Origin: Oikopleura dioica
Lineage: Eukaryota > Animalia > Chordata
Assembly (NCBI GenBank): GCA_907165135.1
Contig: CAJRAX010000008.1
Coordinates: 1-64,000, forward strand
Length of the DNA stretch: 64,000 bases
Direction: 5' to 3'
The translations under genes and the position numbers were made by a program. Shown piece after piece: positions 10,093 through 14,700 of this stretch (positions are counted from its first letter, which is position 1; each line of letters opens with the position of its first letter). Under the pieces are notes generated by a model, which saw only the letters and a list, made by a program, of their open reading frames with translations, was not told the DNA's origin and did not search any database.

Positions 10093-10606
10093 GAATCTAG
10101 GACAAGGGATTAGCAGCCCGCTAGAAATAGAACGCGGCAGGAAGCCTAGTAACCAGAGGCAGGGATTCCCAGGAGGCAGCGGAAGGTGTCAAAGGCGCCC
10201 GAGAGCACCTGGTTTCGAGCGGGTGCCCCGGAATCACGCAGGTTCATTCGAAAGGTTCTTAGCCTACAGCTAAAACCTAAAACGAGGAATTTTAAATAGA
10301 GCCTTTTTCTCAGCAGAAGCATTACCAATAAGACTCCAAGCTGAATCAAAAGACTCTAGGTAGACCATCAATCGATGCTACCTGCTTATTTCACCTCTAA
10401 AAGTCCACGGACTATAAAATCATTCAGCCTCAGGCAATTACGCCTCGAAGGCTCTGGGATTCTTACTCAGTAAGCGGCCGCAGCGGCGCGCCGAGCCGAG
10501 CCAATCAGCTTCAGGCTTCTTAGATTCAGAGAAACCCTCTTCTTAGAAATTCGGAATTCCTGTTTCTTCCTCGAAGCCCTAGACTTGCTGACCCTCTCAT
10601 TTAGAC

Positions 10607-10771
10607 ATGATCGAGGAGGCCTTCGTCAAGGCAGCTCTGGAATTCGGCCCCAAATGGGGAGTGGCTTTGGACTCGGATCCAACACGCCCAATCGAGAACT
10701 CCCAAAGAAGACTCCAAACCCTCAATGAGGAAATCTCCAGGAAAGGATCTCTTCTCCTCAGAATCTTTTAG
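10607..10771 (+). CDS. X ORF0, 54-aa hypothetical protein (MIEEAFVKAALEFGPKWG...)
   Basis: ATG follows a pyrimidine-rich TCATTTAG; also at 6088-6252; below the ORF-track cutoff; no recognisable motif. Confidence 0.3.
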   Translation: MIEEAFVKAALEFGPKWGVALDSDPTRPIENSQRRLQTLNEEISRKGSLLLRIF

Positions 10772-10843
10772 GAACGGGCTACCCCGAACACCTTCCAAAT
10801 TTAGGATAGGCTTTGATCCACTTAAAGAAACACTCTGCTCTTA

Positions 10844-11218
10844 ATGAGTCAGATAAATTGGAGAAGAATTTCCCGCACTGCAATGGCGGAGCAAAAGATT
10901 GCCACGAGACTCGTCAGACTTTATGTCCCCTCGGATGCAAACGAGCCTCTCTCGAATCACAGGCTGATGTTCGATCTGCAGACTCCTTCAAAAGCGAGAT
11001 TCAATTTCGCAGAGCTCTCCTCGTGGGCCCAGATCATTTTCACGGCGCCATCAGGAAAAGAATCACTCTGGGTCGCTCACAGGAGCAACGAGCCTGGTTT
11101 CATACTCTCCATCATCGCAGACGAAATTGCAGAAGCAGAAACCGACCTCGCGGATTCTTGGCAACTCGAATCAAAGCCATATCCATTTAAGCCAATGGAG
11201 AGCCCACGAAGCTTCTAA
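10844..11218 (+). CDS. X ORF1, 111-124 aa hypothetical protein (MAEQKIATRLVRLYVP...)
   Basis: Same ORF in three copies (6325-6699, 10844-11218, 17846-18220 minus); globular-looking composition; its end overlaps the open frame of ORF2 (open from 11191). Confidence 0.5.
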   Translation: MSQINWRRISRTAMAEQKIATRLVRLYVPSDANEPLSNHRLMFDLQTPSKARFNFAELSSWAQIIFTAPSGKESLWVAHRSNEPGFILSIIADEIAEAETDLADSWQLESKPYPFKPMESPRSF

Positions 11219-11328
11219 AAGCAGACTCAGCGGGCACGACTGAGGACCCAAGCGTCAAGCTGGACGAATGCGAAACCATCTCCAATCTACTCGAAGCCCT
11301 GAAAATAGAAAAAGGACCAATAAGAATC

Positions 11329-12856
11329 GTGGCCAGGAGGCTAGACTCTCAGCGTAACTCGGAATCCCAAAGCGCGATGGAGAAAAGCAGACTCTTTCCG
11401 AACAACATCTCGGAGGAGCTCAACAAATGGGCGAAAATCAAGAGCCAAGACTGGTTCCGCGAGTGGGAAGACCTAGAAAATCAAGATATCCTGAACGAGG
11501 GATTCTGGCATTTCGTTTGCCTCCGAGTAATCGGTGAGAGCAAAATCAAGACCCAGGCGAATTACGAACGCCCAAGCTTCACGGACGACAATTGGCTCCG
11601 AAGACTCATAAAGAAAGGTCTTGAAACGATTTTCGACGCAATGCCAAGGTCAGACGCTTTTATTACGCCAGAAGAACTACTGGACTCGCTCAAGATGCTG
11701 AAGTCTCTCCACAGCGACTGGCATGAGATTTGCCATCAGAAAAATGCCTGGCTAGAACTCAAAGCAAACGAGGATACCCAATGGGCGAACAAAAAACCGG
11801 CGAATGTGAACGCATGGATCATCGACATAATCGGCGAATATGCATCGGAAGACTCACCCATTCCGAATCCGACTCCCTTAACAAAGATTCTCTCACCACT
11901 GCTGCTCCACCTGGTGCAAAAACAGCTCATCCAAGACTCAGTCATTGGTCAAGACGGAAGCTGCAAGGAAATGCCCACCCAATGGCACGTGGACTGGAGC
12001 GAACTCAAGGATTCCCGGTCCCTCAAAAGTGGCTGGAGTCAGCGGCGAAAAAGTTAACCCGATTAATACCACGGTTAGAGTCAAAGAAGTTGGAAAAGGG
12101 GATTCCCACTGGATCCTGTGGATTCCTTACAAAGTCGTACCTCAAATATGGGTTTTCAACTACGGCGAGGACTCTGATTTTATCAAAGCGAAATCCCTCC
12201 TCTCCCTTGCAGCCCACCCAGCGCTCACGCCGTTAGAATCAGAGGCGCTCGAGAAGCTAGCCTCCAAACCTTGGACCACCCAAAACGTCAAAGAATGCAT
12301 CTCGGCGTTCCAGAAGCCAACAAGAAACTTCTACGCCTCAGGAGCCTGCTTAGTCGGAGTCAACCGCCCCTTTCGAACTCAGAAGATCATCCTGGAAATC
12401 ATCGCCAAGGTTGTAAGAGACACAAAAGCCCATTCTCACTTGCGCTCACTCGAGCATAACCTCGGAATCTTATCAACTGGCTGGAACTGGGCAAATGGCA
12501 AAAGATTCAGCCCAAACAAGACTCTGGACAACTTCATCGACACCTGGATGCAGAAAAGAGAAGAAGTCACGGGAGTCACGAGACTCAGATTCCTTCGAGA
12601 ACAACCAGAAAAGAGAGAAAGATCGTGCGAATGGCCAATGTGTGGGGAAGCGGAAGCGAGCACGACTTGGTGTAAAACACATCAAGGATTCCAAGAACTC
12701 AAAGAATCTCGCCAACCAGACTGCTCAGAGAAATGCCGAGTCGCAAACGGCTTCATACAGAAAGGACTCCCCAGGGCACAAAAATGTCCATTGACAGCGA
12801 GGAATGGCAAGAAACCTTCTACAAACTCTCCGAATCTTTCAAAACGACTATGCTAA
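11329..12856 (+). CDS. X ORF2, ~510-555 aa Trp-rich protein with a C-terminal C-x4-C-x9-C-x2-H motif
   Basis: This copy has a 1-nt A-run frameshift near 12028; the minus copy (16269-17735) is open there but has a G-run frameshift before the Cys cluster, so the two copies complement to one long ORF. Motif CEWPMCGEAEASTTWCKTH. Confidence 0.65.
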
Positions 12857-13759
12857 AGGACGCTGGCGAAGACCTCATCCAGAGAATCCAGACCAGCGTA
12901 GTCGAAGGATTCGACTCTATCGTAAACGCTTGGAAATCCACGGCAATCCTTTTTCAGGGAGAAAACGACACAGCAGCGAACCTCAGCGAAAGCCTCCGAA
13001 AGTTCGGAAGAGTCTTAAAAAGACCACGATTCGAGAATCCGGGAGCAGCTGGAATAGTCATCTACCACGCAGGGCTAGAAAGATGCGGAGGAAAATTCGA
13101 CGCTTTCGTAGTTGGAAACACCTCAACCAGAAAGAATCAACATCTCCCGAGACTGGCGGATTCTATCTCCAAAAAATCTGGAGACAAATGGATGGAAGTG
13201 GCAAAAATTATCAGCGAACTCACATGCCAGAAAAACACAGTGCTGATTCTCCCTTCACAAAAAGACGGCACCTTACGTTAAATTCGTCACCCAGGGCCCA
13301 ACGAAGAATCTTCATCGAACACTCCAAGGGGACAAAAACCCAAGAATCTCGGGACTCTGGGAAATCTTCCAAATGGCCTGCGATGGGGACTACGAATCTG
13401 CATTTACCCCGTGTTGGGCACACCCCAGGGTGGCGGAAACCATGGTCAGATGCTGCAACGGCTTCGACGCTAAAAACCGAGCAGTCTCGAAAATAGACAA
13501 GCTCAAAATAAGAGCCAATCGAACAACCTGGGAGAATGTGACGGCCAAAACCCACATTCTAGCCCCAGACGCACCGTTCACGACCCACATCAGGGACATA
13601 ATCCTCGACGGAATCAAGGCAGCGGAGAATCTTGACCTAGACCACGGAGAGGAAGCCAAAGTCGAGAATCTCTTCCCGAACGTCTGGTCTCAAGACCGCC
13701 AAAACATCGAAGAACGATTCGCTCGTCTGAATGTCGCTGAAGCCACGGGAAGCGACTAG
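12784..13759 (+). CDS. X ORF3, ~325 aa, possible SGNH/GDSL-hydrolase-like fold
   Basis: Consensus of the two copies is uninterrupted. SGNH-like blocks occur in the right order: VVEGFDSIV (I), FQG (II), IVIYHAGLE (III), VLILP, then LWEIF...CWAHP (V, His present, Asp absent). Judged by eye only. Confidence 0.55.
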
Positions 13760-14358
13760 AAAACGACTCCAAAAACTTCACCAAAATACAGTCAGGAAAA
13801 GGGCCCAAAAGAATCAGAAATTTCCAAAGAAAAAGTGAAAAAAGAGACTCGGAGCCCTCGAAAAGACTCAAAAATCGCCCAAAAACCCCCTTTTCTGCCG
13901 CAAACAAGCTCAAGAATCTTCAACCTCAGGAAAAGACTCGCTAAATCTGATAAATTCTCACTCAAAAGAATCTACTTCACTTTCAATTAGCAAAAATCAC
14001 AGAAAAGAGTCTTACGAGAGAAAACACTTTTCCTCGAATTGCGCACCACCTCCACCACCAATCTCCACAAAAAGATCCGAAAGAGCACAAGAATCAGGAA
14101 ATGGTCTCAAGAATCTAAAGATTTGAATCAAAATAGCATAAAATCCAAATTGGAGACCGTGGGAAAGTTGCAAAGTTGACTCACGAAATAGAGCGCGCTG
14201 ATTGGCGGAGCACCAAAACGAGCCAGGATAAGCCAGGGCTCAAGCGAAAAATTGCCTAAATCAGCTTCATTTCTTCTCCAACAAAAAGAGAATCACCCAG
14301 AGCCCTTTATAAAGAGAAAAACCACTGGATTCCGCTAGAATCAGACGCGTCAAAACCA

Positions 14359-14525
14359 ACCGATTCCTGCGGGAACTGAGTCACCGGGTCCATCTTGATC
14401 GCCGATTTGATCTTCCTCCAGTAGTCTGGCTCGTCGATCGGGTTTTTGGTGATTCCGGCTTCCTCTCGGAGTCTTTCGAGCTCTTCAGCGTCGTGAATCT
14501 GTGCGTCTTGTGCGTCTCGGGTCAT
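14359..14525 (-). pseudogene. X ORF4 N-terminus (MTRDAQDAQIHDAEELERL...), truncated by the fold-back
   Basis: ATG 9 nt after a pyrimidine-rich TTTCTTCAG; frame open up to the palindrome junction; plus-strand copy at 7782-~7949. Confidence 0.5.
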
Positions 14526-14700
14526 TTCTAGAGTCTGAAGAAACGCCTTTGTTAGCAAAGAATCGAAATTTTGGTTTTGGCTAGTTTTGTTTGGAGGAGC
14601 GCAAGGAAAATTTGAAAAGAAAGAGCGAAATTTTAAAAAGAAGCACGAGAAAAAGAGTCTAAATTAAGATCCGGAAGGGAAGAATCTTTTTTTGATTCTC

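What the first reader, a model, noticed from the sequence alone, without database searches (positions are those of the whole stretch)
10093..14700. Element X: unidentified, densely packed multi-ORF unit near the telomere, a candidate new mobile element
Seen: five co-oriented ORFs (54 aa, ~120 aa, ~510-555 aa with a CCCH-type motif, ~325 aa, and a truncated fifth). It is compositionally foreign to its neighbours, joined into Gypsy-A pol, and present in two long and two partial copies. No RT, integrase, transposase or capsid motif is recognisable in this fragment. Known: bdelloid Terminons (giant telomeric Penelope-like retroelements) carry arrays of co-oriented accessory ORFs including GDSL esterases. 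Inference: X may be a fragment of a larger telomere-associated multi-ORF retroelement or virus-like element whose mobilising gene was lost distal to the break. The alternative is a captured host operon.
Basis: partly seen in the sequence, partly recalled or inferred. Interest (0 to 1): 0.8.

Follow-up and report, generated by a model that had tools for sequence, protein, structure and literature searches.

The report
Unclassified two-gene jumping element in tunicate
This is the cut-off left half of an undescribed family of jumping DNA in the plankton animal Oikopleura, carrying two long genes of no known family; the enzyme that moves it likely lies in the part lost here, and finding it would place or define the family.

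Summary
X is real and mobile, but it is two genes, not five. ORFs 1-4 match, in order, single 1,004-1,069-aa Oikopleura dioica proteins (ORF-A), split by frame breaks and one predicted GA-AG intron. ORF5 is the first 55 aa of a 531-aa O. dioica gene model (ORF-B). Short-read contigs show one sharp end at 10093/18971 with 3-7 unlike flanks per run, the empty Gypsy-A site, and at least 4.9 kb more element past the break. ORF-A's tail is on at least four contigs. The four copies in the window come from one insertion, duplicated by fold-back rearrangements; the telomere joins Gypsy-A, not X. Neither gene matches Pfam, PHROGs, NCBIfam or PDB sequences. ORF-A holds a weakly supported RNase H-like fold without conserved acidic residues. 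Best guess: a DIRS-order (tyrosine-recombinase) retroelement with a large extra upstream gene; the main rival is a large DNA transposon. The mobilising gene was not seen. Terminon membership is not supported.

The parts
14361..18971 (-). Longest copy of element X (element positions 1-4611), cut at 14361 by the fold-back
10093..14358 (+). Second long copy = other arm of the 5.4-kb fold-back (8959-14358 vs 14701-20106; 15 differing columns, 14 of them length differences in base runs)
10093..10382 (+). Sharp element end (starts GAATCTAGG, not TG) and ~290-nt end segment shared with diverged sister sequences
   Evidence: tables 5, 7; for coordinates
10607..13759 (+).
10741..10827 (+). Predicted 87-nt GA-AG intron (CAG|GAA ... 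AAG|A) that holds the four in-frame stops between ORF1 and ORF2; untested by RNA
12626..12682 (+). C-x4-C-x9-C-x2-H motif in a ~55-aa insert seen only in X and, in part, its closest relative
13051..13294 (+). Part of ORF-A that aligns to the predicted RNase H-like module of P0005; no conserved acidic residue at the strand ends
14361..14525 (-). First 55 codons of ORF-B; 98% identical to the start of a 531-aa O. dioica gene model (P0017, CAG5101468.1)
14359..14700 (.). Loop of the fold-back; belongs to the minus copy
5574..6863 (+). Partial copy of the left end, same Gypsy-A junction
7334..8960 (-). Partial copy: reverse complement of 13349-14969, including the fold-back loop
32268..32269 (+). 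Empty target site in the 3' tail of Gypsy-A pol (CATGAT|TTTAAA)
1..5204 (+). (CCCTAA)n array joined to Gypsy-A sequence, not to X, with a 3-nt overlap (AAC)

Best explanation
X is the left 4.6 kb of an interspersed Oikopleura mobile element of at least 9.5 kb that sits in the tail of a Gypsy pol gene and is cut and duplicated here by fold-back rearrangements; it is likely a tyrosine-recombinase (DIRS-order) retroelement with a large extra gene in front of a predicted gag-like gene. Shown: a sharp end with many flanks, an empty site, two long genes, copies on several contigs, sequence continuing past the break. Inferred: ORF-B (531 aa, two ordered-looking halves around a Pro/Ser/Gln/Asn-rich linker) would be the Gag. 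RT-RNase H, recombinase and the right-hand repeats would fill the 3.4 kb or more after it. A cDNA circle would integrate by recombination at a short preferred target (A at -2, pyrimidine at -1). ORF-A would be a spliced accessory nucleic-acid-binding protein with a likely inactive RNase H-like module. The local copies likely arose later by microhomology-guided template switches in a broken chromosome end, which was then capped by telomere repeats. My odds are about 0.9 for a mobile element family and about 0.4 for the DIRS-order class.
For: Mobile. Contigs leave the stretch at exactly 18971 with unlike flanks in 4 of 4 runs laid (3, 3, 3 and 7 contigs; agreement 0.55-0.62). X2 and X4 hold the empty Gypsy-A site. 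One X6 contig of 5,722 nt runs 4,901 nt past 14361 (bound computed). The last 128 aa of ORF-A cluster at 90% with gene models on chr2, the Y-specific region, a 14.5-Mb contig and a 110.6-kb contig; the Y one (g17119) is numbered next to the ORF-B model (g17118). Family: 9 relatives at 26-40% identity, up to 1,061 aa, from O. dioica and metagenomes, mostly 22-32% alike to one another. 7 of 13 listed substitutions are synonymous (p 0.024 against 0.25; a small subset chosen by the tool). Class, all indirect. The end is not TG, unlike the Gypsy-B LTRs. At least 5.07 kb lies from the ORF-B start to the end of the X6 contig, within the 4.1-6.2 kb range of Xenopus DIRS elements (PMC9210276, passages). 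DIRS elements are known in O. dioica and are numerous on its Y chromosome (PMC3266345, PMC5240408, passages), where one X copy lies. Ngaro elements show that this order takes on extra ORFs (PMC9210276). The sense strand is A-rich in X and in relative L001. Rearrangement: junction overlaps of 0-3 nt or a 1-nt insert. O. dioica lacks c-NHEJ and uses MMEJ (PMC11067885, passage). A point variant at 9601 is shared only by the two distal Gypsy-A copies of four compared.
Against: No RT, recombinase or methyltransferase gene was seen: the distal part could not be read. ORF-B has no zinc knuckle, no Pfam, PHROG, NCBIfam or PDB sequence match, and no likeness to the window's three Gags (hhalign probability 0.2%), so 'gag-like' rests on size and position only. 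A retained intron and an end conserved across diverged sister families fit a DNA transposon at least as well. End-region depth is mixed: one X4 end piece has body-level depth (46 vs 52-55) and one X6 piece about 1.8 times (126 vs 70), so a terminal repeat is not shown. The RNase H-like fold is weak (Foldseek E 0.04 or worse, best Z 5.6 at rmsd 4.4 over 96 residues, model pLDDT 51). Flanks at the end may partly belong to sister families. The best-matching run may be the window's own sample, so it is not independent.
Confidence: 0.45

Rival explanations
1. X is the left part of a large multi-gene DNA transposon with conserved, possibly imperfect inverted ends. A DDE transposase would lie further on, or ORF-A is itself a much-diverged or decayed RNase H-fold transposase.
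For: Sharp end, nearly identical over the first ~50 nt and still similar over ~290 nt in sister sequences. Predicted intron kept in ORF-A. Flanks end in AT or AC before a purine pair, recalling the AT target of ISL2EU (PMC4482050, passages). The RNase H-like module matches integrase cores among its weak hits (Z 3.7-4.7). An unchecked scan note reports a 26-kb DNA transposon in the same genome.
Against: No acidic residue is conserved at the ends of the modelled strands across the six rows that cover the module. ISL2EU elements average 4.8 kb, start GG, target A|AT|T and encode Pfam-recognisable THAP/DDE and YqaJ proteins; here the site is G|AT|T, the start is GA and neither gene matches.
Confidence: 0.25
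2. X is an endogenous virus-like element whose structural and replication genes are too diverged to recognise or lie beyond the break.
For: Two long orphan genes, foreign composition and many deeply diverged lineages in marine metagenomes.
Against: All named relatives are O. dioica gene models. No membrane segment in the five ORF-A family proteins scanned (highest 19-residue hydropathy 1.26). A host-type intron is predicted.
Confidence: 0.1
3. X is an LTR (Tor-like) or Penelope/Terminon-like retroelement with accessory genes upstream of the RT.
For: A-rich sense strand. Tor3a elements have GA-donor introns and Tor3b/4b have internal promoters (PMC4402516, parts 1-3 of 6). Terminons carry accessory ORFs ahead of a 3' RT (PMC6431247, passages).
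Against: The end is not TG and no primer-binding site was recognised. No similarity to the window's gag or pol profiles. The fixed end is 5' of the genes, whereas Terminon copies are 5'-truncated and fixed at the 3' end. Penelope-like elements are reported as almost absent from one O. dioica assembly (PMC8008620, section 8).
Confidence: 0.12
4. X is a host gene pair or operon spread by segmental duplication and caught in a subtelomeric rearrangement.
For: Predicted intron, TTTAG directly before the ORF-A start (a possible trans-splice acceptor; consensus recalled), and promoter-like CCAAT boxes. O. dioica genomes are heavily rearranged (PMC11067885).
Against: A base-precise end with many unlike flanks, and a filled and an empty site inside a Gypsy pol gene. 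The genes lie about 770 nt apart. Composition differs from the neighbours.
Confidence: 0.06

Closest known systems
DIRS-order tyrosine-recombinase retrotransposons (DIRS1-like, PAT, Ngaro)
   Same: Present in O. dioica and common on its Y chromosome. Ends unlike LTRs. The room after ORF-B fits a gag-RT/RH-YR core. Ngaro carry an extra ORF.
   Different: No RT, YR, ITR/ICR or split repeat seen. A ~1,050-aa spliced gene ahead of the putative gag was not in the passages read. Total length of 9.5 kb or more exceeds the 4.1-6.2 kb given for Xenopus DIRS.
Terminons (giant Athena-group Penelope-like elements of bdelloid rotifers)
   Same: Long element, co-oriented genes, one copy near a telomere.
   Different: Two genes, not an array; no GDSL motif; no hammerhead match; telomere repeats not attached to X; fixed end on the 5' side; host is a tunicate.
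PHIS-superfamily DNA transposons, ISL2EU group
   Same: Two genes, AT-containing target, purine-purine start.
   Different: Twice the size, site G|AT|T not A|AT|T, start GA not GG, no THAP/DDE or YqaJ domain in either gene.
Tor (Ty3/gypsy) elements of O. dioica
   Same: Same host; GA-donor introns and internal promoters occur; X sits inside a gypsy pol.
   Different: No TG end, no membrane protein like Env, no likeness to gag or pol of the window's three gypsy elements.

Membership tests
Interspersed mobile element (any class) | Defined end with many different flanks; filled and empty sites | tested here: met
   tables 7, 8; left end only
Interspersed mobile element (any class) | Near-identical copies at several loci | tested here: met
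   four gene models at 90% on chr2, YSR, a 14.5-Mb and a 110.6-kb contig
DIRS order | RT-RNase H gene | not testable with these tools
   distal part not retrievable; no YxDD in ORF-A family
DIRS order | Tyrosine recombinase gene | not testable with these tools
   distal part not retrievable
DIRS order | ITR plus ICR, or split direct repeats | tested here: inconclusive
   only short chance-level repeats inside the 4.6 kb held; partner repeats would lie in the lost part; end depth mixed
DIRS order | Gag-like first core ORF | tested here: inconclusive
   ORF-B fits by size and place; no family or profile match
DIRS order | No target-site duplication | not testable with these tools
   right junction lost
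Terminon | Athena-type RT near the 3' end | not testable with these tools
   distal part not retrievable
Terminon | 3' hammerhead ribozyme next to telomeric repeats | tested here: inconclusive
   no Rfam match better than E 4.5 in 10000-14800; 3' end lost; telomere array joins Gypsy-A
Terminon | Variable, telomere-capped 5' truncations | tested here: not met
   5' end base-precise with non-telomeric flank consensus in 4 of 4 runs
Terminon | Array of accessory ORFs such as GDSL esterase or DEDDy exonuclease | tested here: not met
   two genes; no GDS(L) motif or Pfam hit in the part held
Tor / Ty3-gypsy LTR element | LTR starting TG followed by a primer-binding site | tested here: not met
   starts GAATC, mostly after C in contig flanks; no PBS recognised
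Tor / Ty3-gypsy LTR element | Transmembrane Env or CCHC Gag | tested here: not met
   no hydrophobic segment or CCHC in ORF-A family; ORF-B unlike window Gags
ISL2EU / PHIS DNA transposon | A|AT|T target and GG-starting TIR | tested here: not met
   site is G|AT|T, start GA (PMC4482050)
DDE DNA transposon (any) | RNase H-fold transposase with an acidic triad | tested here: inconclusive
   weak RNase H-like fold in ORF-A without conserved acidic residues; a distal gene could supply it
DDE DNA transposon (any) | Terminal inverted repeats and target duplication | not testable with these tools
   right end lost

The most novel reading that the evidence does not exclude
X belongs to a new superfamily of animal mobile elements with no recognisable RT, recombinase or transposase anywhere in its 9.5 kb or more. 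Its ~1,050-aa ORF-A, with one or two RNase H-like folds, would be a new kind of integration or replication protein that has diversified into many deep lineages inside appendicularians.
Probability: 0.17. Interest if true: 0.85.

Novelty: new variant of a known kind. Interest (0 to 1): 0.52.

Why it matters
O. dioica has a tiny genome that lost most transposon classes, and 44% of predicted repeats in one assembly were unclassified (PMC8008620, section 8). X gives one such repeat a defined end, two genes, a diverse protein family and signs of recent insertion. If it is DIRS-order, it is an unusually long variant with a large spliced accessory gene. If no known enzyme follows ORF-B, it is a new class. 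Either answer is one look-up away, at the copy beside g17118. The locus is also an example of a chromosome end likely rebuilt by microhomology-guided fold-backs in an animal without c-NHEJ.

Tried and rejected
No whole genome is held, so the distal part could not be read.

Protein searches: ORF3 at 293-935 aa gave only the window's own product; the ORF4 C-half gave 0 of 105 candidates. The ESM Atlas gave no usable feature hit for ORF3 or P0005, and its ORF3 structure rows had TM 0.26 or less by the query on a poor model. Pfam, PHROGs, NCBIfam and PDB sequence searches gave nothing significant.

Loci: viral contigs gave none in 4 protein scans and 1 DNA scan. Prokaryote genomes gave none by protein and one chance 19-mer (about 4 expected). 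Metagenome contigs gave 1 of 487 candidates, a 1.6-kb piece with no neighbouring gene.

Folds: the core-domain model (P0014, pLDDT 58) gave no Foldseek match at E 0.001 in the viral or PDB library and best Z 4.1 on a long helix; one integrase row at Z 3.5 is not significant. The N-terminal part of ORF-A and all of ORF-B were not modelled.

RNA: no RNA holder listed; 0 reads in 4 of the 6 raw RNA runs laid, which is no test. Rfam and folding of the left end gave nothing (z -0.41); hammerhead-like pattern matches had no convincing stem.

Rejected ideas: internal repeats within ORF-A (probabilities under 1%), likeness to the window's Gypsy pol or gag, a degenerate RT (no YxDD, no profile match), an SGNH hydrolase (no Pfam hit, no catalytic motif).

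Literature: the supplement of PMC8008620 had no entry for g17116-g17121. No paper held any of six accessions, and five topic searches listed no description of this family. Volff 2004, Denoeud 2010 and its supplement, Naville 2019 and Repbase (recalled or seen only as citations) were not readable here and may already list it under a DIRS or unclassified name.
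Full report
Setting. The window opens with 5.2 kb of (CCCTAA)n. From 5202 to about 33,920 it is a patchwork of near-identical pieces of one gypsy element (Gypsy-A) and of X in both orientations; beyond lie a 170-bp satellite and two more gypsy elements. No whole genome is held. 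X products are 98-100% identical to named Oikopleura dioica gene models, so the host is O. dioica or a close lineage; TTAGGG is its telomere repeat (PMC8008620, passage).

Observation. The start at 10093, the foreign composition (GC 0.48-0.50, sense AT skew +0.26, against 0.34-0.40 and +0.06 to +0.10), the ORF sizes and the four copies are as described. Two corrections follow from the self-comparison. First, 8959-14358 and 14701-20106 are arms of a fold-back that differ at 15 columns, 14 of them length differences in base runs. The longest copy is therefore the minus one, 18971 to 14361, and the fifth ORF belongs to it. Second, all three copies of the left end follow the same Gypsy-A sequence, so they derive from one insertion. 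The telomere array joins Gypsy-A with a 3-nt overlap, and the junctions measured overlap by 0-3 nt or carry a 1-nt insert.

ORFs 1-4 are one gene. A search of 1.84 billion representatives with ORF3 found 10 proteins at E 0.001 or better, 9 besides the window's own, at 26-40% identity. Two are O. dioica models of 1,004 and 1,061 aa, a third of 1,069 aa is a cluster member, and one is a 764-aa metagenome protein. P0005 aligns in order to 10607-11146 (E 2e-13), 11434-12577 (E 9e-46), 12754-13215 (E 2e-6) and 13358-13678 (E 5e-11). Some frame breaks are private to one arm. At the ORF3/4 break all 4 short-read runs differ from the window by one base in length, and at the ORF2/3 break 3 of 4 do; X1 keeps that break (12 of 37 such rows are shown). 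X2 and X4 also hold 36 more bases near 15800, where the window lacks a 12-residue helix seen in relatives. So this copy is slightly decayed, and some breaks are likely sequencing errors.

A predicted intron. ORF1 and ORF2 share a frame and are separated by four stops. X1 and X2 contigs show no extra gap there (table 8). Of 214 stop-free candidate introns ending in AG, 10741-10827 ranks 4th overall and 1st among those starting with G, and gives a gap-free match to P0002. Its donor, AG|GAA, fits the GA-AG consensus reported for O. dioica (PMC7072748, passages). No RNA tested it.

ORF5 is the start of a second long gene. Its 55 residues hit 1 of 23 longer candidates, a 531-aa O. dioica model on the Y-specific region, at 98%. 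The letters that X1 and X2 contigs show past 14361 encode the next residues of that protein. The last 128 aa of ORF-A cluster with the adjacent model g17119, with chr2 g3996 and with products on two other contigs; 1 of 10 look-ups hit.

X is mobile. Of 24 runs listed, 6 DNA runs from 3 studies hold X; I laid 4. In each, several contigs leave the stretch at exactly 18971 with unlike flanks (3, 3, 3, 7). The flank consensus ends in AC before the element, against AT in the window. X2 and X4 hold the empty Gypsy-A site, as does the window at 32268/32269. One X6 contig runs 4,901 nt past the break, so the element is at least 9,512 nt, with about 3.4 kb after ORF-B. Diverged sister sequences share the first ~290 nt, a GC-rich block and the ORF-A start, which explains much of the extra depth at the end; a terminal repeat is not shown. 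The best run may be the window's own sample.

Are the fold-backs real? X1 contigs break at exactly 14361 while X2, X4 and X6 run through, and X1 depth steps up over 14708-14984 (277 vs 168 and 213), where the window has four copies. A point variant is shared by the two most distal Gypsy-A copies. These are weak hints that the rearrangement is in the DNA; a read chimera is not excluded. O. dioica lacks c-NHEJ and uses microhomology joining (PMC11067885, passage).

What the proteins are. No Pfam, PHROG, NCBIfam or PDB sequence match reached significance, and five family proteins lack YxDD, GDSL, Walker A, HUH, CCHC and membrane segments. A model of the C-terminal 331 aa of relative P0005 (9 sequences, pLDDT 51) has one confident module, residues 91-185. 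Its best matches are mostly RNase H-like folds: UvrC nuclease, Prp8, uL18 and HIV RT by Foldseek (E 0.04-0.2), and Argonaute (Z 5.6, rmsd 4.4, 96 aligned), UvrC (5.4, 4.7, 110), a terminase complex, an Spt6 complex, Prp8 and SIV integrase (4.7, 3.7, 83) by VIA-align. Z under 8 may mean only a common arrangement. No acidic residue is conserved at the strand ends, so if the fold is right the module is likely inactive. The Cys/His motif is a lineage-specific insert.

Mechanism. The data show an element with a precise left end and a short target preference, two orphan genes and room for more. I commit to a DIRS-order retroelement (about 0.4). The order is present in O. dioica and common on its Y (PMC3266345, PMC5240408, passages), its ends are not LTR-like, the 5 kb or more from the ORF-B start matches the 4.1-6.2 kb of known DIRS elements, and Ngaro elements take on extra ORFs (PMC9210276, passages). 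Every step of that cycle is inferred. A large DNA transposon (0.25) explains the intron and the conserved end equally well. LTR or Penelope/Terminon (0.12), virus-like (0.10) and host operon (0.06) readings fit worse. Terminons are 5'-truncated and fixed at a 3' hammerhead-telomere end (PMC6431247, passages), the reverse of what the left end shows.

Novelty. No paper in the library held six accessions of the family, and five topic searches listed no description. Older Oikopleura transposon surveys and Repbase could not be read and may list it. The scan had no note on this DNA. Papers seen: PMC4402516 parts 1-3 of 6; PMC8008620 passages, section 8 and a supplement search; passages only for PMC3266345, PMC5240408, PMC11067885, PMC3212892, PMC6431247, PMC8557442, PMC7072748, PMC4482050, PMC4157794 and PMC9210276.

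Verdict. Interest 0.52; new variant of a known kind; 0.17 chance of a new superfamily.

Noticed in passing
window 5202-33923: About 29 kb next to the telomere array is built only from direct and inverted near-identical pieces of Gypsy-A and X, with junction overlaps of a few bases: a likely break-fusion or template-switch history capped by telomere repeats.
   Followed up: partly
window 21645-23271 and 32299-33923: The region 3' of Gypsy-A pol is repeated directly in front of gag, so Gypsy-A reads head-to-tail; the second copy joins the 170-bp satellite at the gag start.
   Followed up: no
window 36368-45794 and 52834-60736: Two more gypsy elements with long LTRs (1.55 kb and 1.05 kb, over 99% alike) sit inside a 170-bp satellite; the second pair does not start with TG at the coordinates found.
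   Followed up: no
window 32023-32688, 38062-43137, 54927-59603: All three gypsy pol genes end in a shared ~100-aa tail after a long acidic linker behind the integrase; X inserted just upstream of this tail in Gypsy-A.
   Followed up: no
window 10600-10609 (+) and 14526-14533 (-): TTTAG lies 2 nt before the ORF-A start, and TCTAGA lies just before the ORF-B start; the first recalls a trans-splice acceptor and the second a male-specific promoter motif of O. dioica (both recalled).
   Followed up: no
window 14647-14672 vs 18753-18778; element positions 411 and 4173: The regions upstream of ORF-A and ORF-B share two short words (26 nt at 73%, 11 nt exact), a possible shared promoter design or chance.
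   Followed up: no
P0012 (50 aa): A metagenome relative of P0005 ends near where X's predicted intron lies, a hint that the intron is shared; it may just be a contig end.
   Followed up: no
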